Part shown: one piece after another, positions 4,759-26,762 of the stretch
Numbering within the stretch: position 1 is the first letter of the stretch
Layout of the letters: each line of letters opens with the position of its first letter
Virus record (IMG/VR): IMGVR_UViG_3300032328_000237
Span: 1-26,763 of that record
Direction: 5' to 3' (one strand)
DNA length: 26,763 nt
Origin: a virus
Taxonomy: Duplodnaviria; Caudoviricetes
Program-made: the position numbers and the translations under genes
Notes under the pieces: model-generated
Seen by the model: only the letters and a program-made list of their open reading frames with translations
Database searches by the model: none
Told to the model about the DNA's origin: nothing

Positions 4759-6078
4759 ATGGGAACCGGTGTAGGCGAAGCGATGTTAATTGGGGCTGCT
4801 GTTGGCGGCGGCTCCTCTGCTCTTACGGGTGGCGACCCTTTAAAAGGTGCCCTGATAGGTGCTGCGGGGGGTGGTATTGGTTCTGCTATTGGTGCTGCGG
4901 GTGCTGCATTTGATCCAACGGCTTTAGCTGGGGCAACTGAACTTGGTTCTGTAGCTGGTACAAGTTCATTAAATACTGCAATAGACCCTGGTTTAGCTAG
5001 TGTTAATTTTGGCACAATGACCCCACAAGCTTTGAGTCAGGGCGTTTCTCAAGGCACAATTCCTATAGAAGCTGCTAACCAATATGGTCAATCTTTCAGT
5101 CAAGCTTTTGAAGGTATTAAACCGACAAATACACCCTTTTCAATTAGAGACTTACTTAGCAAAGCCCCAACACCGGATATTACAGGAAACCCAGAGGCTC
5201 AAAAACAGGCTGCTCAAGCAACAGGTAAAAATATTCTTGGCTATATGCCTGGAGACAAAGGGTTTTTGTCTGACCCTACGTTAGCCGCAATTGGTGGTGG
5301 TAGCGCCCTTTTAGGAAGAAAAGATTCTTCAGGTTTGCCTGGCGAAGAAGACTATGTAAGTAGTTTTGACCCATCTAAATTTATACGATCTACCCCAACA
5401 TACGCCCCTGGAAGCGTGTATGTGCCTGAGTATAAAACTTATGCTGCCGAGGGTGGAATTATGCAAGCCTATCAAGCTGGTGGTCCTGTAGAGCGTATGT
5501 CTATGATGAACACGGCTATGAATCCTCAAGGTGGCATGTACCCCCAGGGTATGGTTGATAAGACCCAGTACGCCACTCCTACCCAACGCCCAGTAAGTGC
5601 TGAGATGGTAGATGAAGCCCCTGCCTATGAGCGGTCTAGCCCAATGCTAATGGCTGGTGGTGGTATTGCAGGAATCCTAGAAGGTGCAAAAGCCCAAGGA
5701 TATACCCCTATGGAGTACGACCAAATCTATGGACGGGGTAATGCTTTACAGGAAATGCAGGCAGCCATGAAACAGGCTAAATACGCTAGTGGTGGTATTT
5801 CATCTTTAGGGGGCTACTCAGATGGCGGCAGAATGCTTAAAGGTCCTGGTGATGGCATGTCCGACTCTATTCCTGGCGTTATTGCTAATAAACAACCTGC
5901 CCGTTTAGCGGATGGTGAGTTTGTGGTACCAGCCGACGTGGTTAGTCATTTAGGTAACGGCTCTACCGATGCTGGTGCTAAGCAGTTATACGCCATGATG
6001 GACAAAGTACGTAAGGCTAGGACAGGTAAAAAGAAACAGGCTCCAGCAGTTAAAGCTAACCGATACATGCCTGCCTAA
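4759..6078 (+). CDS. putative internal virion/ejection protein with xxxGG repeats and C-terminal GPGxGxSDSIP domain
   Basis: Start moved to ATG 4759 (GAGGT RBS). Gly/Ala-rich hydrophobic N-terminus; C-terminal GPGDGMSDSIP...LADGEFVVPADVV motif of the kind seen in tape-measure proteins. Confidence 0.7.
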   Translation: MGTGVGEAMLIGAAVGGGSSALTGGDPLKGALIGAAGGGIGSAIGAAGAAFDPTALAGATELGSVAGTSSLNTAIDPGLASVNFGTMTPQALSQGVSQGTIPIEAANQYGQSFSQAFEGIKPTNTPFSIRDLLSKAPTPDITGNPEAQKQAAQATGKNILGYMPGDKGFLSDPTLAAIGGGSALLGRKDSSGLPGEEDYVSSFDPSKFIRSTPTYAPGSVYVPEYKTYAAEGGIMQAYQAGGPVERMSMMNTAMNPQGGMYPQGMVDKTQYATPTQRPVSAEMVDEAPAYERSSPMLMAGGGIAGILEGAKAQGYTPMEYDQIYGRGNALQEMQAAMKQAKYASGGISSLGGYSDGGRMLKGPGDGMSDSIPGVIANKQPARLADGEFVVPADVVSHLGNGSTDAGAKQLYAMMDKVRKARTGKKKQAPAVKANRYMPA

Positions 6079-8908: not shown

Positions 8909-11900
8909 ATGCCACGAGTAGAAATACCGGGTGTAGGGATTGTACGCTTTCCAGATAACATGTCTCGTGAAGACATTATGTCTCAAGCTACGGCTATGCA
9001 GCAAAAGGCTAGCCAACCTTTACTTGACCCTAAAGAATTACCTACTTCTGAACTTGTTAAAGGTGGATTTAGCCGTGGCATTGAAGGATTAAAAGGTACA
9101 GCGTTTGATTTACTCCCTGCGCTAGGTGCTTCATTAATTGGTAAAGACGCTTACGCTAAAGAACAGCTAAAAGAATATAGCGATCGTATGGCAGCTGCGC
9201 AAGAAGAATCGCCTATTGCATATAAGTCCTATAAAGATATTGGCAGTATTGGTAACATGTTTGATTTTGCTGCTGAGACATTTGGTGAAATTGGACCTGA
9301 TATTGCCTCGTTTATGGTGGGTGCTGGTGTTGGCAGTGTCGCTGGTAAAACGATTGCTAAAAAAGCCTTAGAAAAACAAATTCGTGAGCAAGCATCCGAG
9401 ACCGCTGCAAAGCGTGGGTTAGATGATGTGGCTGAAAAAGCCCTAGCAGAACGTTTAATGTCCCGTGCCAAGCAGGGTGCTGTCGGTGTTAAAGCAACCG
9501 AGGCTGGTGCTAATGTAGGTTTAAAGACGGGTTTATTTGGTACATCTTTTGGTATTAACATACCTGACGTACTTAATAGTGTGTACGAAGATACTGGCGA
9601 GTTATCACCTGGTATTGCTTTAACGATCGGCTCCCTGGTTGCAGCGTTAGATACCTATCTCCCACAAAAGATCTTAAGCCAACTTAGCCCATCTGCTAAA
9701 GAGCGGATTGCTGCTCAAATGCTTGAAAAATCTGCCCTTGTTCCAACCACGTTTAAAAGAGCTTTTGGCGCAGAGATATTAAAGACAAGTGCTGGTGAAG
9801 CATTAACTGAGAGTGCACAGGAAGCCATTACTAAGCTTGGCTCGCAGATTGCTGGTGACAAAGACCCATTCTTTTCCCAAGAAAACATTGATCAGATTCT
9901 TACTGCATCATTAAAAGGATTTATTGGTGGTGGTACGTATGGCGCCCCCGGTGCCGCTTTTGAAGCTAAGCGTATTAAAGATGAACGAAATCGTCAGATT
10001 GCCGAGAGAGAAGCGCAACAAACTCCTCCAACTACGCCGGGTGCGACAACAGATGCTGCACCAACTGAAGCCGAGCTTACTCCTGCACAAATACGTGAAC
10101 AGAAACAACTCGCTGCACGACAACAAATTTATGGGGATCTTTTTGGTGAACCTGTACCTGCTGGTACACGTGGCGCTCCTACTTTTCCAGTTGACGGATC
10201 TGTTCCAGTAGAAGAAGGGGTACCTGCCCGCCCAGCCGAAACCGTTGCAGCACAACAAGAATTAGACTTAGGTACGGCACCCGTTCAAGGTGAATTAGGT
10301 CTTGAACAATCTACACAAGTTACACCTGCCCCCGCTCAATTTGCCACAGTATTAACTCCAGAAGTTTTAAAAGACACTGGTCTCAAACCACAATCCGGGT
10401 TTTATAAAAAACTTCTTAACAAGGACATGGCTAATCCAGAGGACCAGGCAACCGTACGGGATACACTTATAGAAGTTAGACAAAATAAAAACCTAACCGA
10501 TTCGACCAAAGAAGCTACAGAACGTATTGCTATGCAGGCGTTTGGTGCGTTAGCTCAGCAACAAGAAATGTTTGGTCCTCGTGGTGGGGTTTTAAAAGGA
10601 GCCGAATATGGAGGAGTTCAACCTAAACCTGTCGGTGGAGCTGGTGGAGCAGGCGTTCCTGTTCCTAGTGAACGAGAGGGCGAAGGAGCCCCCGCAGGAG
10701 TTACAACACCTGGAGAGCAAGGATTGGCTCCAACTACAGAGGCTGCTGATGTCACTACAGATAGAGAAGAGTTACAGCCGAGTGCACTAACTGCGGAGGA
10801 GCAAGATGCGCTACAACAAGAATTGGCTACGGAAATGGGGGGAGAACCTACAACGCAAACTGCGCCCGCACCTCAAGCCCCTGCTGTGGGAGTTAGTGAA
10901 GGAGTTCCTGAAGGAGTTAGTCCGGCAGTCACTGCGCCTGTTACTCAAGTTACCCCTGCCGAAGCGGTGGCATCAAAAGCTGCTTCTAAAGCTCCTAAAA
11001 CTATAAGGAATGAAAAAGGCAGCTTAGAGTTTCAAGAACTTGGTCGCCCAAGTGAGACTAACTTTACACAGTTCTTGGGTAAAGGCTATCTTGGATTTGC
11101 TACTGAAGACATACAGGACATTGACGATACCTTAAAAATTACCGATGTCGTGCAAGGTAAATTCGGTGTTAATCCGATGCTCAATGCGGCTAAGATTTAC
11201 TTTAGCAAGATGCCCCGCACGGTTGATAACCTTATCAATATTGCGTTTGATATGGCGTTTGATACCCCAGCTTTCCGTCAAAGTCCTGACGATCCACTAG
11301 CTGCTGACGAAGTAGCATTTTTCCGTGGTATGGGTGGTAAGAATGCACGGTTTGCCCATACTTGGGTGCTACAAAACTTAAGCCCTGAAGCCCAGCAAAA
11401 AATGCGTGATTTTATCCGAGGCTTTGAAATAGCTCGTGATAATTACAGTAATGAGCAATTAATGGACTTAATTCGTAGTGGTATTTCTGGAGTAAGAGAA
11501 AACTATAACAACGAAACGGCTAAGAGTTATGTTGAGGGCCAAGCAGCCGAAAACGCCGCTGCTCGCACCCGTGCACAACGTCGTGCCATATTCCCAAATA
11601 AAGAAGAACGTAGAAAAACTATTGCTGAGCAAGAAACGTTTGAAAAAGAATTAGCCGAGATTAAAGGTAAGAAAGTTAAAAAAGCTCTAGCAGGTCCAAT
11701 ATCTCAGTTATCTATGCCTTTGCATCCAGCAATTGCGGCTAGATTAGTTGCTGGTGATTTAGTAGGTGCTTTGCGTATGTTGTCGGCTAACCCCAACAAC
11801 TTTATTGCACGTGCTGCTTCTCGTCTAGCTAATGTTAATTTACAGACAAAACTTGTTATACAGGAAAACCTCTACAACGATGCCGGCAAACCTGTACCTG

Positions 11901-14900
11901 GCTACTATGACCCTAACAACGACACAATTTACATCGACCCTAACTCGGGCATGAATGTACATACGTTGCTACATGAGGCAGGACACGCAGCTACATCGCA
12001 TGTAATGGATAATCCAAGCCACCCCCTTACAAAACAAGTTACAAACCTACTAAATAAGATTCGGGATAGTCTTGGCTCAGCTTATGGTGCTACTAACCCA
12101 GATGAGTTCCTTGCTGAAGCTCAGTCAAATCCAGAGTTTAAAGCGTTGCTTCAGTCTATTTATCCTGATGGCAAACCAATTAGTGCTTGGGATCAGTTAG
12201 TCCGCATGATTAGTAACTTTATGCGTCGTCTGTTTCGTATGAAGCCACGTCCGTTAGAATCTGCTTTTGATCAAGTAGACCGTTTTATTAATGGTATTAT
12301 CTCTCCAGCCCCTGAATCTCGTGATGCTGGCATCTTATATTCGGCTGCAAATACTGGCGTAGCGAACAAAGTATTTGACCGTTTAGGCGCATCCCTAGAA
12401 GCTCTACCCGGCATGACCCCAGCTCGTGCAGATAACGTCCACGAGTTCTTAAAGAATACCGTTGGTGGTAACTTCCGTAACTTTACGCTGTCCTTGCTAC
12501 CATTAAACGCTTTATCCGACGTAGCTAAACAAAAAGGGCTGAAAGATGCTCCATTGGTTGACCGTTTAGTAAACGAGCGTGGTGGTTACGAGTACAAACT
12601 AAATGAGAAGATTGAGCCTGTAGTTAAACAAGCTGAAGACTTTGCCAAGAAAGAAAGCCAAGCTCAGATAGATCTGTTTAACAAGGTTGTTTACGACAGC
12701 ACCCTCAATAAAGTCGATCCGACCAAACTTCGTACTGACTATAAAACACCTGAAGAACAGAAATCTTATGACGAAGTTAAAGCTAACTACGACAAACTAG
12801 GTGGTGCTGGTAGGGCGCTTTACGTCACAATGCGTGACGCTTACAAAGAAATGTATCAACGTATTATTGATACGATTAATGAACGGATTGATGCATCGGT
12901 TACTGATCCAGCGAGAGCTAGCATAATTAAAAAAGATATTTATGAGCGTTTAATTACCAAAGGTAGGATTGATCCTTATTTCCCATTAGCACGTTATGGC
13001 AAGTACTGGTTATCATACTCGGCCCGGGATGACGCTGGACAGATGGAATTTTACGTTGAAGCGTTTGAAACTGAACGTGAACGTGCCCGCTACATGCAGC
13101 AATTAGAGCAATCAGGTGCGCAAAATGTTCAGGCTTTCTCCAATCTATCTGAATTAGACTATCGTAAAACACCATCTGGTTCATTTGTTAATGGCGTATT
13201 ACAAGTTATGGAGCTTAATAAAGTTCCACCAGAAGCCATTGAAGAAGTGCTACGTTTATTCTTAAGTAGTTTGCCAGAAACAGCGTTTGCTCAATCCTTT
13301 CAACGTCGTAAAGAAACGCTTGGTTTTAACAGAGACGCTATCCGTGCTTTGCGTGAACGGGTTTACCGCACATCCCATCAATTAGCCAGCATGCGCTATG
13401 CGTCTAAGTTAAATGAAGTTTTAGATAAGATGAAAGAATATGCTCGTGGTGTAGGTAAAGGTGCTGGTGATGAAGCACAACGAGACAATCGTGTAATTAA
13501 TGAGTACGTTAAAGAGTTTGAAAAGCGTATTAGTTATATCAATAATCCAACCGTATCTAAGTGGTCGCAAGTTGCAACCTCGTTTGGTTTTAATATGACT
13601 CTTGGCTTTAACGTATCGTCTGCCGTTATTAACTTAACCCAGATTCCGTTAATTCTTTACCCATACCTAGCCGGAACTTACGGTTATGGTGAGACAAGCA
13701 GAGCTATTAGCGACGCCTACAAGATTTATTTAAATAGTGGTTTTAATCGTGAAGTAGAACTTATAGGCTCTAATGGGCAGCGTGTACGCCAAAAAGCTAT
13801 GCCAGCTTTAGATAACTATAACTTTGACGATCCTAATTTACCTCCGCAAATTAAACGTTTAAAAACTTTATCCCGTGTTGCTAGAGATCAAGGGCAGCTT
13901 AATCGCTCGCAGTTGTATGACATCCTAGAAGTAGATGAGCGTAACAATGCTTTGTCTAAAGTTAATGCCGCTTCTGGTTTTATCTTCCATCATGGTGAGC
14001 GATTAAATCGTCAAATAGCTTTAATTGCTGCGTATAACCTTGACCTTAACAGGATGATGACTAAGCCAACCAAGGAAGAGGCTGGTCTAACTCAAGAGCA
14101 GAAAGAAGAAAAAGCAGCTAATAATGCGATATACACCACAGAATTAACTAATGGTGGAATTTCTGCAGCTGCGGCACCACGTATTGCTCAAAGCTCGCTA
14201 GGTAAAGTTTTGTTTATGTTTAAACGCTATGGCGTTTCTATGTATTACTTGTTATTTAAGACCGCTCGTGAAGCTTTAAAAGGTGAAACACCTGAAATAC
14301 GTCAAGCCGCTATGCGTCAAATCGCTGGTATTTACGGTACTTCGGCATTATTTGCTGGTATTCAAGGTGTGCCAATGTTTGGTGTTGTAGCTATGATTTA
14401 TAACGCATTTGCAGATGATGATGAAGATGATTTAGAAACCGCTACTCGTAAATACTTAGGTGAATTACCTTATAAAGGCTTACTTAACTACGTAACTAAC
14501 GTTGAGATTGCAAGCCGTACAGGACTGAGTGACTTAATTATTCGTGATTCTGGTAAGCAAGATTCTCAGACAATTGCCTTGACTATGATGGAGATGCTTG
14601 GTGGTCCTGTATTTGGTGTTGCATCTAGAGTTGAGCGTGGTTTAGACATGATCCGTGACGGCAATGTTCAACGTGGTATTGAGAACATATTGCCATCGTC
14701 TTTAGGTAACATACTAAAGGGTATCCGATACTCAACCGAAGGCACTACAACTTTACGTGGTGATCCAATTACTGGAGAAGTTAACCCATGGAACGTGGCT
14801 GCCCAAGCGTTTGGCTTTGCTCCTGCCGATTACACCCGCCAGCTTGAAATTAACAATCGTCAAAAAGGTATTGATAAATCGGTTAATCAAGAAGAAACTA

Positions 14901-15148
14901 AGCTAAAACGTCAATACTATACGGCAACCCGCATGGGGGATAGCCAAGGAAGAAAAGAAGCTCGTGACAAACTTTTAGAGTTAGGTGCTAAACATCCATC
15001 CCTAGAGATCAATGCTGATACGATTGGTGATGTTTTAGACCGATCTATTGAAGCGCAGAAACGAGTAACTGATCGTATGCGTAACGGGGTAGCTTACAGT
15101 CCGAAGATGCTTAAAGAGATCGAACAAAACCTTAAAGAATATGACTAG
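8909..15148 (+). CDS. giant internal virion / large polyvalent protein with zincin metallopeptidase and PLxRFG-like domains
   Basis: 2079 aa; AAGGAG RBS; LLHEAGHAAT...DEFLAEA near 11970-12120; YFPLARYG near 12980; Pro/Ala-rich linker ~10020-11000; last gene of the late arm. Confidence 0.75.
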   Translation: MPRVEIPGVGIVRFPDNMSREDIMSQATAMQQKASQPLLDPKELPTSELVKGGFSRGIEGLKGTAFDLLPALGASLIGKDAYAKEQLKEYSDRMAAAQEESPIAYKSYKDIGSIGNMFDFAAETFGEIGPDIASFMVGAGVGSVAGKTIAKKALEKQIREQASETAAKRGLDDVAEKALAERLMSRAKQGAVGVKATEAGANVGLKTGLFGTSFGINIPDVLNSVYEDTGELSPGIALTIGSLVAALDTYLPQKILSQLSPSAKERIAAQMLEKSALVPTTFKRAFGAEILKTSAGEALTESAQEAITKLGSQIAGDKDPFFSQENIDQILTASLKGFIGGGTYGAPGAAFEAKRIKDERNRQIAEREAQQTPPTTPGATTDAAPTEAELTPAQIREQKQLAARQQIYGDLFGEPVPAGTRGAPTFPVDGSVPVEEGVPARPAETVAAQQELDLGTAPVQGELGLEQSTQVTPAPAQFATVLTPEVLKDTGLKPQSGFYKKLLNKDMANPEDQATVRDTLIEVRQNKNLTDSTKEATERIAMQAFGALAQQQEMFGPRGGVLKGAEYGGVQPKPVGGAGGAGVPVPSEREGEGAPAGVTTPGEQGLAPTTEAADVTTDREELQPSALTAEEQDALQQELATEMGGEPTTQTAPAPQAPAVGVSEGVPEGVSPAVTAPVTQVTPAEAVASKAASKAPKTIRNEKGSLEFQELGRPSETNFTQFLGKGYLGFATEDIQDIDDTLKITDVVQGKFGVNPMLNAAKIYFSKMPRTVDNLINIAFDMAFDTPAFRQSPDDPLAADEVAFFRGMGGKNARFAHTWVLQNLSPEAQQKMRDFIRGFEIARDNYSNEQLMDLIRSGISGVRENYNNETAKSYVEGQAAENAAARTRAQRRAIFPNKEERRKTIAEQETFEKELAEIKGKKVKKALAGPISQLSMPLHPAIAARLVAGDLVGALRMLSANPNNFIARAASRLANVNLQTKLVIQENLYNDAGKPVPGYYDPNNDTIYIDPNSGMNVHTLLHEAGHAATSHVMDNPSHPLTKQVTNLLNKIRDSLGSAYGATNPDEFLAEAQSNPEFKALLQSIYPDGKPISAWDQLVRMISNFMRRLFRMKPRPLESAFDQVDRFINGIISPAPESRDAGILYSAANTGVANKVFDRLGASLEALPGMTPARADNVHEFLKNTVGGNFRNFTLSLLPLNALSDVAKQKGLKDAPLVDRLVNERGGYEYKLNEKIEPVVKQAEDFAKKESQAQIDLFNKVVYDSTLNKVDPTKLRTDYKTPEEQKSYDEVKANYDKLGGAGRALYVTMRDAYKEMYQRIIDTINERIDASVTDPARASIIKKDIYERLITKGRIDPYFPLARYGKYWLSYSARDDAGQMEFYVEAFETERERARYMQQLEQSGAQNVQAFSNLSELDYRKTPSGSFVNGVLQVMELNKVPPEAIEEVLRLFLSSLPETAFAQSFQRRKETLGFNRDAIRALRERVYRTSHQLASMRYASKLNEVLDKMKEYARGVGKGAGDEAQRDNRVINEYVKEFEKRISYINNPTVSKWSQVATSFGFNMTLGFNVSSAVINLTQIPLILYPYLAGTYGYGETSRAISDAYKIYLNSGFNREVELIGSNGQRVRQKAMPALDNYNFDDPNLPPQIKRLKTLSRVARDQGQLNRSQLYDILEVDERNNALSKVNAASGFIFHHGERLNRQIALIAAYNLDLNRMMTKPTKEEAGLTQEQKEEKAANNAIYTTELTNGGISAAAAPRIAQSSLGKVLFMFKRYGVSMYYLLFKTAREALKGETPEIRQAAMRQIAGIYGTSALFAGIQGVPMFGVVAMIYNAFADDDEDDLETATRKYLGELPYKGLLNYVTNVEIASRTGLSDLIIRDSGKQDSQTIALTMMEMLGGPVFGVASRVERGLDMIRDGNVQRGIENILPSSLGNILKGIRYSTEGTTTLRGDPITGEVNPWNVAAQAFGFAPADYTRQLEINNRQKGIDKSVNQEETKLKRQYYTATRMGDSQGRKEARDKLLELGAKHPSLEINADTIGDVLDRSIEAQKRVTDRMRNGVAYSPKMLKEIEQNLKEYD
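10608..10790 (+). CDS. candidate nested (+1 frame) 60-aa gene inside the giant virion gene
   Basis: AAGGAG at 10596-10601, 6 nt before the ATG; protein-like amphipathic helical sequence; overlaps a low-complexity linker of the host ORF. Confidence 0.5.
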   Translation: MEEFNLNLSVELVEQAFLFLVNERAKEPPQELQHLESKDWLQLQRLLMSLQIEKSYSRVH

Positions 15149-15149
15149 G

Positions 15150-15176
15150 AAAAAAACCCCCGAACTAGTCGGGGGT
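15150..15176 (-). terminator. intrinsic terminator for - strand transcription
   Basis: ACCCCCGA-5 nt loop-TCGGGGGT stem with A7 at 15150-15156 (U-tract on the - strand); no U-tract on the + side. Confidence 0.85.
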
Positions 15177-15225
15177 CAAAGGGTTCTTCACGTTTCGGAG
15201 AACTAAAGCAACAGGAGAATGTTGC
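15150..15225 (-). ncRNA. candidate small antisense RNA (three hairpins, anti-Shine-Dalgarno loop)
   Basis: SL1 GCAACA-UUCUCC-UGUUGC, SL2 GUUCU...AGAAC, then the terminator; TATACT -10-like hexamer at 15237-15232; 13-nt perfect complement to the RBS at 19952-19964. Confidence 0.55.
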
Positions 15226-15237
15226 AACTGCAGTATA

Positions 15238-15513
15238 TTACAAAATTCGCCAAAAACGCATTCCTAATTTCCCACCTTCAATCCTGTCGTAGCCTTTCAG
15301 TTTAATTTCCTTTTCCTTTGCTACTATTTGCATCTGTTTGTTTAATTCTGCTAAGTTAATAGCAGGAATAAAAATTGATGCTCCTACAACAAAATCGTCC
15401 CAATTTACTTTAATAACCACTCCATCAGGGCAGACTTGACCCTTCTGTCGTATCACCTTCAAGGGCAGCTTTATGTTCTGCAACGGCTGTGAGGGCTTGT
15501 TCTCTGTCGTCAT
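15238..15513 (-). CDS. hypothetical protein downstream of the primase-helicase
   Basis: Protein-like C-terminal half (WDDFVVGASIFIP...GMRFWR); overlaps the primase 3' end; start uncertain. Confidence 0.65.
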   Translation of the reverse strand: MTTENKPSQPLQNIKLPLKVIRQKGQVCPDGVVIKVNWDDFVVGASIFIPAINLAELNKQMQIVAKEKEIKLKGYDRIEGGKLGMRFWRIL

Positions 15514-18304: not shown

Positions 18305-18322
18305 TAGCCACCCTTGTTAGGC

Positions 18323-18379
18323 GGGGTACTCGTGCGACATGTATGTGAAGCATGTCTAGTGTGAAATGCACTTTCCCCC
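18323..18379 (-). promoter_or_regulatory. structured RNA element in the primase-helicase 5' leader
   Basis: Nested stems GGGG/CCCC, GUGC/GCAC and GACAUG/CAUGUC, with a GAA/AGUA loop-E-like internal loop. Confidence 0.6.
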
Positions 18380-18391
18380 TTAAAACGTTAT

Positions 18392-19258: not shown

Positions 19259-19270
19259 TTGACGTTCTCC

Positions 19271-19540
19271 TTAAATATCATCGTCAGGGTTAAAATTAAG
19301 TACTGCTTGCTTAGGGTCTTTATTTGTTACTGTGAGGCTCCCATCTGCTTCCTCTCTTACAAGTTCTCCGCCGTTTAGTCTTCGTAGGGCTGACTCGACT
19401 TCACTAATCTTGAAACGGTAAACACCGCCCAGTTTTAGCGAAGGGATTAAGTCCTGTCGAATCCATGCACGGACGGTTGATACCGAAAGCGAAAAGTGTT
19501 TAGCCACGTCCTCTATCGGCACAAACGGTTCATCCGACAT
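19271..19540 (-). CDS. excisionase/MerR-like helix-turn-helix DNA-binding protein
   Basis: IEDVAKHFSLSVSTVRAWIRQDLIPSLKLGGVYRF winged-HTH pattern; AAGGAGG RBS. Confidence 0.85.
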   Translation of the reverse strand: MSDEPFVPIEDVAKHFSLSVSTVRAWIRQDLIPSLKLGGVYRFKISEVESALRRLNGGELVREEADGSLTVTNKDPKQAVLNFNPDDDI

Positions 19541-19951
19541 TTAGTTCCTCCTTATAGTTACTGAATATTCAGCGTTTGAATTTAGCCCCGGTGGAAGCAG
19601 TTCAGGGTTCTCCTCTAAAAAAGCCCGCATATTGGTTTGTTGAAGCCGCTTCTCCAATAATTCAGGCACACCATGTTCAAGAATAAACTTGTGCATGGAT
19701 TCCCAATCAGAAGTTGAATACGTAGTCTTAACGGTACGATAAACAGTTCCTGAATTAGTTCTTAGACTCTCTACTCCAGAGTCTTTCATGTGTTGAAGAA
19801 TAGCCACTTTAACGGTTTTCATATCAGCTTCAATTTTACTGATCTGCTCTTCCATCTCGTGGACAACTTCATATTTTTTATCACGCATTTTGATGTAGAT
19901 GCGAGTGAGCTTTTCTAAGGGGGGCTCTACCCCTGTCTTGTTTTCTGACAT
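19541..19951 (-). CDS. phage replication-module protein (coiled coil plus DW...LPPG), function unknown
   Basis: Start moved to ATG 19951 (AGGAG RBS), giving 136 aa; first gene after the predicted promoter. Confidence 0.75.
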   Translation of the reverse strand: MSENKTGVEPPLEKLTRIYIKMRDKKYEVVHEMEEQISKIEADMKTVKVAILQHMKDSGVESLRTNSGTVYRTVKTTYSTSDWESMHKFILEHGVPELLEKRLQQTNMRAFLEENPELLPPGLNSNAEYSVTIRRN

Positions 19952-20009
19952 ACATTCTCCTGTTTTAAAATAATAACGGCTTGGTTTTATTCTCGTTATC
20001 GGTATTACT

Positions 20010-20038
20010 ACTGTACTACTAAACTTTATCTTTATCAA
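20010..20038 (-). promoter_or_regulatory. sigma70-type promoter for the HTH/SSB/primase operon
   Basis: TTGATA (20038-20033), 17-nt spacer, TACAGT (20015-20010); upstream of a ~50-nt leader and RBS. Confidence 0.6.
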
Positions 20039-25153: not shown

Positions 25154-25334
25154 ATCTTTTCTTTTTAATTGCAACAATACCATCTTCTTCTATTTCATCT
25201 TCCATCATAGCTTTAGCCATAGCTTTAGCCTTAGATGGTATTTCTTCAGGACTATAATCCCCATTCATTAAATAACCAATCATGGCAAACCCTGCATAAA
25301 TTGCTTCAAGATGTTCCTTATCTTGCTCAGTCAT
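25137..25334 (-). CDS. small hypothetical protein
   Basis: GGGAG RBS, ATGA overlap; YAGFAMIG...AKAMAKAMM helical pattern. Confidence 0.7.
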   Translation of the reverse strand: MTEQDKEHLEAIYAGFAMIGYLMNGDYSPEEIPSKAKAMAKAMMEDEIEEDGIVAIKKKRYVRKN

Positions 25335-26053
25335 TTAGCACTCCCATGTGTGGCTAAGTTGTTCTGTCCTAGCTGTTGTATTTTGTAGCCGTGACCTTCT
25401 AGGTATTCAAGCAATGCTTTACGTTTAGGTTCAAACCATGGCTTCCATGTCCATGCTTCAAAGATAATTGGTGGGTAGTTGTTTGCCTTGATGGTTTTGA
25501 TGCCACCCTTAATTACTTCTAGTTCATGACCTTCTACGTCAATTTTAATTAAGCGTACGTTTTTGTGTGCGCCTGAGTCCAAGGTAAATACTACTAATGG
25601 TTCTTTGACACCCTCGGTTTTACACTCGTAATCATTATCACGAACTTCTTTGTCCATACTAAACGCACCAATGTTGCCTTCATTAGCGTAGTCAGGCATG
25701 GTAAGTACCATCCGTTCTTCTTTATCAGACAACCCAAAGTTATGGCAATGGATATTATCTAGCCCGTTAATAAACGTATTGGCACATAGTTGGTAATGTA
25801 TTATCCGTTGTGGCTCAAAGGCATGATATGTATGCTTTGATGCTTTTTTAGCAAGGGGTATACAAAACGTACCTAGGTTTGCACCAATGTCTAGCACCAC
25901 TCCTTCAGGTGCATCCATTAATAACTTAAGGCTTAGTTGATGTATATCGTTCTCGTACAGTTCTTGTTTTAAATGGGTTGATATTAAGTCTTGCCCTTTG
26001 AACACAAGGAACTGTGTGCCGTCTACTTTTACTAGTTCGCAATTAGGTAACAT
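25331..26053 (-). CDS. FkbM-family SAM-dependent methyltransferase
   Basis: VLDIGANLG, AFEP, LIKIDVEGHELEVIKG and PIIFE motifs. Confidence 0.92.
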   Translation of the reverse strand: MLPNCELVKVDGTQFLVFKGQDLISTHLKQELYENDIHQLSLKLLMDAPEGVVLDIGANLGTFCIPLAKKASKHTYHAFEPQRIIHYQLCANTFINGLDNIHCHNFGLSDKEERMVLTMPDYANEGNIGAFSMDKEVRDNDYECKTEGVKEPLVVFTLDSGAHKNVRLIKIDVEGHELEVIKGGIKTIKANNYPPIIFEAWTWKPWFEPKRKALLEYLEGHGYKIQQLGQNNLATHGSAK

Positions 26054-26054
26054 C

Positions 26055-26762
26055 TTAACCCCTTGGTAGTTGACCGCTAAAGTTGTAAGTCCCGCTATGG
26101 GTTAGATTCGCCCAAGGTGCGGCATAGACTTTGAAGCCAGCTTTGCGAGCAATCTTACAGAAGTGGTAGTCTTCTGAGAGCAATCGGTTAGACTCTTCAT
26201 CAATGCTGGTATCAAAGAACTCGTGAATAATCTTTTTCTGTGGGTTCTTATCAACAATTAAGATCATGTCGTTGGTGTAAGTTGGCACTAATGGTTTTAA
26301 AGTATCAAAAACATTACGCTTAATCAGCATAAACCCTGTACCGCCGTTATCAATCTCCATGGGTTCGTTAATGTTGCCTACTGTTTCGTGTACACCGCCT
26401 ACTAAGTTAACCACAAACGATCCTGTGTAATTACCCAAGTCTTTGTAGTCCACACCCTTCTTAACCGCATCCGATACTAACTGCCAGTTAATCTCTTTCT
26501 TTGGGTACAATCCACAGATAATATCTTTGTCAGCATCAATCATACGCACAATGTCTTTTGGGTCAAAACTAATGTCCGCATCAATAAACATTAAGTGCGT
26601 AGCATCTGACTGCATAAAGTCATAAGCCATGCCGTTACGGGCACGGGTAATCAAAGACTCATTCATCATATATGAGTAATACATCTGAATACCTCGTGGC
26701 GAGAACGTCTGTACAGTATTCAGAATACCCATGGTGTAACCGCCTACACATAGCCCACCGTA
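26055..26762 (-). CDS. GT-A fold glycosyltransferase-like protein (5' partial)
   Basis: Frame is open to the window edge (YGGLCVGGYTM...); SLITRARN, FIDADI (DxD), GTGFMLIKR, SEDYHFC and H.G motifs. Confidence 0.8.
   Translation of the reverse strand, partial: YGGLCVGGYTMGILNTVQTFSPRGIQMYYSYMMNESLITRARNGMAYDFMQSDATHLMFIDADISFDPKDIVRMIDADKDIICGLYPKKEINWQLVSDAVKKGVDYKDLGNYTGSFVVNLVGGVHETVGNINEPMEIDNGGTGFMLIKRNVFDTLKPLVPTYTNDMILIVDKNPQKKIIHEFFDTSIDEESNRLLSEDYHFCKIARKAGFKVYAAPWANLTHSGTYNFSGQLPRG

What the first reader, a model, noticed from the sequence alone, without database searches (positions are those of the whole stretch)
15150..15237. Candidate multi-target anti-RBS small RNA controlling the phage replication operon
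Seen: the gap between the convergent arms folds on the - strand into three tandem hairpins ending in a U-tailed terminator, and a TATACT hexamer lies 6 nt before the first base of hairpin 1. Hairpin 1 displays UUCUCC in its loop, and its ACAUUCUCCUGUU (15210-15222) is a perfect 13-nt complement of the RBS of the first operon gene (19952-19964). The next segment, UUUAGUUCUCC (15197-15207), pairs with the HTH gene RBS GGAGGAACUAAA (19540-19551) with one bulge, and over 7 nt with the SSB RBS (19264-19270). ACCCUU (15179-15184) complements the primase SD AAGGGU (18310-18315). The seeds roughly follow gene order. Inference: one ~76-nt RNA, or a processed 3' UTR, represses several replication genes as a timing or dormancy switch. 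Caveats: no good -35 box is visible, and the short matches are partly expected for any anti-SD sequence.
Basis: partly seen in the sequence, partly recalled or inferred. Interest (0 to 1): 0.9.

Follow-up and report, generated by a model that had tools for sequence, protein, structure and literature searches.

The report
Phage small RNA silencing early genes
An uncultured aquatic phage family keeps a predicted ~76-base RNA gene whose exposed seed is complementary to, and changes together with, a ribosome-binding tag on the phage's own early genes while its late genes avoid the match, so it likely turns down translation of the early genes as a group; the RNA itself has not been observed.

Summary
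It is a conserved -10 box / 5' hairpin / anti-Shine-Dalgarno seed / U-tailed terminator unit, seen as 80 distinct variants in phages with 34-100% primase identity. The seed covaries with the ribosome-binding site (RBS) of the DUF7307 gene (14:2 independent pairs) and of the SSB-like gene (12:1), but not with the HTH or primase genes. In this window only the 13-nt DUF7307 match exceeds chance. Across 13 genomes, 91 of 392 early-arm genes but 1 of 284 late-arm genes carry an 8-nt or longer exact complement, and the tag switches with the seed between clades. Best reading: an independent sRNA that dampens early-arm translation during infection, working like an RNA version of T4 RegB. No transcript, host or repression is shown. 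There is no Rfam family and no description in nine paper searches. This scan noted the same idea before on other DNA. Cluster K1 mycobacteriophages show a similar layout, which makes their unexplained start-associated sequences testable.

The parts
15150..15225 (-). Predicted sRNA, about 76 nt, from inferred +1 (G15225) to the end of the U-tract
   Evidence: one strong copy per genome with model R1
15232..15237 (-). -10-like hexamer directly after the stop codon (15238-15240) of the small gene, followed by a 6-nt variable spacer; no good -35
   Evidence: TAnnnT in 69 of 80 variants vs 7 of 372 other stop codons; best -35 match 2 of 6 or less in 55 of 80
15208..15225 (-). Hairpin 1 carrying seed 1 (15210-15222), loop UUCUCC
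   Evidence: 97% of cells paired, 13 G-U cells on this strand, 2 pairs with changes on both sides
15183..15207 (-). Seed 2 (15197-15207) and weak hairpin 2; variable; target in this genome unresolved
   Evidence: pairs the SSB-like RBS in sister lineages L008/L009
15150..15177 (-). Intrinsic terminator, one-directional, shared with the early operon
   Evidence: 0 of 80 variants have an A-run before the stem
19952..19964 (-). Main predicted target: RBS of the DUF7307 (Pam3 gp33-like) gene
   Evidence: 13-bp match, best net binding in the window, -13.4 kcal/mol; covariation
19541..19951 (-). DUF7307 gene, 136 aa, long N-terminal helix plus beta domain; function unknown
20010..20038 (-). Conserved sigma70-type promoter heading the DUF7307-HTH-SSB-like-primase-small gene unit
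   Evidence: -35 match of 4 of 6 or better in 61 of 78 relatives
19264..19270 (-). RBS of the SSB-like gene: a family-level target, only a chance-level 7-nt match here
19540..19551 (-). HTH gene RBS: match present, not supported as a target
18310..18315 (-). Primase SD: match present, not supported as a target in this clade
15238..15513 (-). Small conserved gene ending the early arm; its last codons carry the sRNA promoter region
8909..15148 (+). DarB-like internal virion protein gene ending the convergent late arm

Best explanation
The gap holds a conserved promoter-like-to-terminator unit whose seed is complementary to, and covaries with, the RBS tag of the phage's early genes; it is likely transcribed as a ~76-nt sRNA that would pair over these sites and block their translation during infection. 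Shown: anatomy, conservation, complementarity, covariation with the DUF7307 and SSB-like RBSs, early-arm enrichment and late-arm avoidance. Inferred: a 5' end at 15225 from its own -10; loop-initiated pairing that opens hairpin 1; ribosome exclusion, strongest on DUF7307, the first gene of its promoter unit; action while late genes are translated, i.e. an early shut-off or negative-feedback timer.
For: Unit present in 51 of 52 distinct gap entries with no terminator filter. TAnnnT in 69 of 80 vs 7 of 372 control stops; CUCC in 80 of 80. Independent pairs at tree distance 0.4 or more, helix length: DUF7307 14 better: 2 worse (p 0.002), SSB-like 12:1 (p 0.002). Pairing runs 5 nt or more past GGAG into the spacer in 40 of 74 own pairs vs 7% of distant foreign pairs. 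Exact complement of 8 nt or more: early 91 of 392, late 1 of 284 (summed over 13 genomes); early genes vs own sRNA 86 of 316, vs other-clade sRNA 124 of 2376; late genes 1 of 259 vs 73 of 1912. The fifth SD base flips with the seed: clade A early GGAGA 91 of 118, late 21 of 81; clade C early GGAGC 22 of 35, late 4 of 26. Strand: 13 G-U cells in hairpin 1, one-way terminator. No tyrosine integrase in 13 records, 8 of them near-complete.
Against: No transcript or repression data exist for it. At tree distance 0.15 the energy measure was not significant (DUF7307 15:9, p 0.15; SSB-like 14:9) and SNF2 was 8:4 at best. In the window only 2 of 12 early SD genes reach 8 nt. The plus strand of the window folds better (-30.3 vs -26.5); wobble asymmetry in sRNA-target pairs is weak (15 vs 8) and whole-RNA G-U counts are even (27 vs 24). 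Genome counts rest on my own simple gene caller with arm set by strand, and on related genomes, so p-values are overstated. The weak -35 gives no timing information, and its profile matched no other promoter. DNA polymerase and primase families show no 8-nt match (0 of 12, 0 of 13).
Confidence: 0.65

Rival explanations
1. Same RNA and pairing, but it serves dormancy: constitutive expression from a carrier or plasmid-like state would keep lytic genes off and block superinfecting kin, as c4 does for P1/P7.
For: An extended -10 (TG) in 46 of 80 variants could work without an activator; seeds diverge between clades like immunity types.
Against: Late genes avoid their own seed, which is needless if they are not expressed. 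No tyrosine integrase; no repressor or partition family among 85 of 90 G001 proteins vs PHROGs or 60 selected proteins vs Pfam. Serine recombinases were not searched separately.
Confidence: 0.12
2. The working molecule is the plus strand, the 3' end of the late transcript, which copies the RBS tag and would act as a decoy for a protein that binds the tag, or as a sponge for the minus-strand RNA.
For: Plus strand folds well with the tag in a loop; no plus-strand intrinsic terminator, so late transcripts may run through; a shared tag alone would also produce covariation. Likeness to CsrA sites is recalled, not tested.
Against: Promoter signature, U-tract and hairpin-1 G-U pairs are all on the minus strand; mismatches lean towards wobble (weak).
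Confidence: 0.1
3. The regulator is the 3' UTR of the early operon mRNA, or a fragment cut from it, giving dose-dependent feedback without its own promoter.
For: Shares the operon terminator; -35 is poor.
Against: Fixed TAnnnT plus a 6-nt freely varying spacer plus purine (63 of 80) before hairpin 1 is a promoter pattern.
Confidence: 0.08
4. A generic anti-SD RNA aimed at host mRNAs, like the toxic small RNAs of Burkholderia.
For: Invariant CUCC core; sub-threshold likeness to anti-hemB.
Against: Only 4 of 128 SD genes in 400 kb of the candidate host MAG reach 8 nt vs 10 of 20 early genes of the phage contig in it; covariation is with phage spacers. Host is uncertain.
Confidence: 0.03
5. Only a terminator region with chance anti-SD matches.
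Against: Covariation outside the SD core, promoter signature and arm bias.
Confidence: 0.02

Closest known systems
c4 antisense RNA of phages P1/P7 (PMC12197685, passage)
   Same: Phage RNA of 77 nt acting in trans on the RBS region of the phage's own mRNA, with seeds probably in loops.
   Different: c4 targets the antirepressor mRNA for immunity. Here many early genes share the target tag, no antirepressor or integrase was seen, and there is no Rfam C4 match.
T4 RegB endoribonuclease (PMC1702504, start of abstract in search listing)
   Same: Class-wide inactivation of early mRNAs through a GGAG-containing motif.
   Different: RegB is a protein nuclease needing S1; here the proposed agent is a pairing RNA. 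Functional analogy only.
Start-associated sequences (SAS) of Cluster K mycobacteriophages (PMC3203893, PMC11373665, PMC12699233; passages)
   Same: Extended SD tag limited to non-structural genes, with one reverse copy. I found that copy in a hairpin loop in the gap where late transcription is reported to start.
   Different: Unrelated phages and sequence; the SAS is nearly invariant, and the loop sits in a long leader. It is absent in 4 of 10 phages examined, including Pixie with 18 SAS. SAS function is unknown in print.
anti-hemB (RF02837) and betaproteobacterial toxic small RNAs (RF02278) (PMC1950547, PMC4603805; passages)
   Same: Short hairpin RNA ending in a terminator; the Rfam anti-hemB consensus has a CU-rich loop.
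   Different: Chromosomal; score 21.5 bits vs cut-off 49.5; no phage targets described in the passages read.

Membership tests
Trans-acting anti-RBS sRNA (general kind) | Own promoter signature and intrinsic terminator | tested here: met
Trans-acting anti-RBS sRNA (general kind) | Seed complementary to distant RBSs and covarying with them | tested here: met
   DUF7307 and SSB-like genes
Trans-acting anti-RBS sRNA (general kind) | Discrete transcript detected | not testable with these tools
   No usable RNA run
Trans-acting anti-RBS sRNA (general kind) | Pairing-dependent repression | not testable with these tools
   Needs reporters
c4 antisense RNA (Rfam C4) | Match to the covariance model | tested here: not met
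   No C4 match at E 5 or below in the window; none at gathering score in 18 related loci
c4 antisense RNA (Rfam C4) | Targets an antirepressor mRNA in a temperate immunity region | tested here: inconclusive
   No antirepressor or tyrosine integrase found, but many early proteins are unannotated
anti-hemB / toxic small RNA | Rfam gathering score | tested here: not met
   21.5 vs 49.5 bits, E 0.55
SAS-type tag of Cluster K | Extended SD tag restricted to non-structural genes, with one reverse copy | tested here: met
   same layout, not homology
SAS-type tag of Cluster K | The 13-nt SAS consensus | not tested
   Pattern searched only in mycobacteriophage loci; the tags printed differ from it
RegB-type early mRNA decay | RegB nuclease gene and cleavage | tested here: inconclusive
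   No RegB-named hit among proteins scanned; no dedicated search

The most novel reading that the evidence does not exclude
Phages can label a whole temporal gene class with a private extended Shine-Dalgarno tag and switch the class off with one co-evolving small RNA, an RNA-guided counterpart of T4 RegB. The same logic would explain the start-associated sequences of Cluster K mycobacteriophages, whose single reverse copy lies in a hairpin loop where late transcription starts.
Probability: 0.45. Interest if true: 0.9.

Novelty: new variant of a known kind. Interest (0 to 1): 0.78.

Why it matters
The phage sRNAs in the review parts I read act mostly on single switch genes or on host genes of temperate phages. 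This one appears to address a large set of its own early genes through a shared tag, in a common aquatic family with no integrase found (about 4600 IMG/VR stretches match patterns of one marker gene). If true it adds an RNA layer to the early-to-late transition. It also gives a direct test for SAS function, called ill-defined in 2024 and unverified in 2025, in a cultured phage with existing RNA-seq. The natural seed-tag pairs from different clades are ready-made orthogonal translation switches.

Tried and rejected
Expression: no RNA holder listed; the one run laid was contigs, probably DNA; this is no evidence either way. BLASTN against cultured phages: no match. Distant cultured relatives Rollin, KPP25 and RHph_TM27A (Rollin and TM27A primase 24-28%): no such unit at the junction, no shared early tag with a unique complement, best model hit E 0.27. 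Two Pelistega copies also lack it. Search for the missing early arm of close kin through the last window gene failed, as that gene sits in diverse backgrounds. Search for other promoters like the sRNA promoter: only itself. A cryptic plus-strand gene behind the tag copy: ORF of 40 aa or more in 5 of 80, rejected. Protein function: DUF7307 gave coiled-coil hits only in PDB and unnamed viral folds, one labelled Siphovirus Gp157; SSB-like gave no significant hit. Model R1 got a poor consensus structure (7 pairs) and missed the most distant clades, so it was used only for copy number. Host: the closest bacterial record is a Ca. Methylopumilus MAG contig (85% SSB-like identity) in which I saw no host genes, so this is binning only. 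The last value is an edge artefact and was ignored. An earlier count gave a wrong coordinate, corrected in entry 5.

Full report
Setting. The window is a 26.8-kb fragment of an uncultured tailed phage; complete relatives are 60-66 kb. A plus-strand late arm ends in a DarB-like 2079-aa gene at 15148. A minus-strand arm carries DNA polymerase A, exonuclease, SNF2 helicase, a DUF7307 gene (ATG at 19951), an HTH gene, an SSB-like gene, a DUF927 primase/helicase and a 91-aa gene ending at 15238. The SSB label stays unconfirmed.

Observation. The 76-nt minus strand folds into three hairpins (z -4.3), though the plus strand folds slightly better. With the SD core fixed and the rest of each RBS shuffled, only the 13-nt DUF7307 match beats chance (p about 0.001); SSB-like, HTH, primase and SNF2 do not. 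With unfolding costs included, DUF7307 is the best site in the window (-13.4 kcal/mol) while HTH (-6.2), SSB-like (-5.0) and primase (-3.3) are ordinary. Rfam gives only sub-threshold hits and none in 18 related loci.

Conservation. Relatives came from IMG/VR and GTDB scans. Without any terminator filter, 51 of 52 distinct gap entries show the unit; L039 gave no gap. For the larger set I kept loci with primase and small-gene hits and a U-tailed hairpin: 139 loci, 80 distinct RNAs. I did not tally loci lost to that filter; L187, L209, L228 and L260 are seen failures. TA follows the stop codon in 76 of 80 and TAnnnT in 69 of 80, against 32 and 7 of 372 other stops. The six following bases vary freely (46 variants) and a purine comes next in 63 of 80. 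The -35 is poor (55 of 80 at 2 of 6 or less), unlike the promoter before DUF7307 (61 of 78 at 4 of 6 or more), and 46 of 80 have an extended -10. CUCC is in all 80. The 5' hairpin varies greatly between clades, and in many distant ones the seed lies in a single-stranded linker. Hairpin 1 keeps 97% pairing with 13 G-U cells on the minus strand, and no variant has an opposite-strand U-tract.

Covariation. On the first 46 variants, own sRNA-RBS pairs beat permuted pairs for DUF7307 (z -9.3), SSB-like (-5.9) and SNF2 (-4.9), not HTH (+1.1), primase (+1.8) or the small gene (+0.5); this ignores kinship. With independent pairs on a primase tree at distance 0.4 or more, helix length favoured own pairs 14:2 for DUF7307 and 12:1 for SSB-like, but 8:4 for SNF2, 4:7 for HTH, 10:5 for primase and 9:4 for the small gene. 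At distance 0.15 only the DUF7307 helix measure stayed significant (15:3). The signal lies outside the SD core: pairing extends 5 nt or more into the spacer in 40 of 74 own DUF7307 pairs, 7% of distant foreign pairs, and 0 of 49 HTH pairs. L205, L219 and L237 each match their own different spacer over 13-16 nt, and L238 has changed the core on both sides. L005 changes seed 2 without a change in the HTH site. Primase is matched only in two distant clades. Seed 2 pairs the SSB-like site in L008/L009 and an endonuclease gene site in G002, so in this genome its partner may lie beyond the window end; that is inference.

Regulon. In the window and 12 related records, using my own gene caller and strand as arm, 91 of 392 early SD genes and 1 of 284 late SD genes carry an exact complement of 8 nt or more. 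Early genes match their own RNA at 86 of 316 and other clades' RNAs at 124 of 2376; late genes at 1 of 259 and 73 of 1912 (threshold 7: 15 of 259 vs 185 of 1912). Early genes of clade A use GGAGA and those of clade C use GGAGC, each matching its seed. Recurrent targets are DUF7307 (11 of 13), SSB-like and SNF2 (7 of 13 each), a DUF2201 peptidase-like gene (6 of 11) and several unknown genes; polymerase and primase families never reach 8 nt. These genomes are related, so the p-values are optimistic. Background in 400 kb of the candidate host MAG is 4 of 128.

Mechanism. Shown: unit, complementarity, covariation, arm bias. Inferred: transcription from the -10 box, pairing begun at the CU-rich loop, ribosome exclusion. 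Late-gene avoidance implies the RNA is present while late genes are translated, which favours a shut-off or feedback timer over dormancy; so does the lack of a tyrosine integrase in 13 records. What turns the weak promoter on is unknown; the HTH protein is a guess. A plus-strand decoy cannot be excluded, since wobble asymmetry is weak (15 vs 8).

Known systems. It works like c4 (trans pairing on the phage's own RBS) with a RegB-like reach, but is a member of neither family. Papers seen: PMC12197685 parts 1-2 of 6 plus passages; passages of PMC3203893, PMC11373665, PMC12699233, PMC4603805 and PMC1950547; PMC1702504 as a search listing only. Nine searches showed no description of such a phage RNA. 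The library lacks most subscription papers, I read no supplements (the review lists 38 further phage sRNAs in one), and candidate catalogues outside Rfam were not checked.

SAS parallel. The lead came from an earlier scan note and I tested it. The single reverse SAS of Anaya and Adephagia forms the loop of a long hairpin (z -4.4 and -7.5) behind a -10-like hexamer, in the gene 92-93 gap where Adephagia late transcription is reported to start. The loop is exact in 4 of 10 phages examined, CU-rich in 2 and absent in 4, including Pixie. This is an analogy with exceptions, not evidence for the window element.

Verdict. A real, conserved, co-evolving anti-RBS RNA candidate with a broader and partly different target set than first proposed. 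New variant of a known kind; interest 0.78. Earlier notes of this scan report the same idea on other DNA; they are unchecked and were not counted as support.

Noticed in passing
L274:31850-31905 (Anaya) and L275:8662-8718 (Adephagia): The reverse start-associated sequence is the loop of a strong hairpin in the gap where late transcription is reported to begin; kept exactly in 4 of 10 Cluster K phages examined, absent in Pixie, TBond007, Marshawn and MarkPhew.
   Followed up: partly
window 19964-20010 (- strand): The DUF7307 leader has a conserved hairpin just upstream of the RBS in most close relatives, which leaves the target site open; some lineages have lost it.
   Followed up: partly
window 18305-18391 (- strand): The primase SD is buried in a conserved C-rich/G-rich hairpin with an alternative G-run upstream, a possible cis control of primase translation; in distant clades a terminator-like hairpin sits here.
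   Followed up: no
window 15238-15304: The 91-aa small gene overlaps the primase end by about 89 nt and is conserved down to about 33% identity; no family hit.
   Followed up: no
window 15150-15180 (+ strand): The late arm has no intrinsic terminator here in any of 80 variants, so late transcripts may run antisense over the sRNA and primase genes.
   Followed up: partly
L264 (Rhizobium phage RHph_TM27A), starts at 5458, 6660, 7138, 9226, 18769, 22345, 24324 and gap 30684-30705: Several early RBSs lie inside a repeated short inverted repeat, and a similar repeat lies at the arm junction; a different tag system.
   Followed up: no
window 25331-26732: An FkbM methyltransferase and an Anp1-like gene occur at over 90% protein identity (for the latter) in phages whose polymerase and helicase DNA is only about 65-70% identical, suggesting a mobile cassette.
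   Followed up: partly
L266:3518-6223: DNA polymerase of the phage contig in the Methylopumilus MAG is 901 aa with a split Pfam match, suggesting an intein or other insertion.
   Followed up: no
L138-L141, L135, L136: In these distant clades a second segment pairs over 10 nt or more with a primase start region lacking a classical SD.
   Followed up: partly
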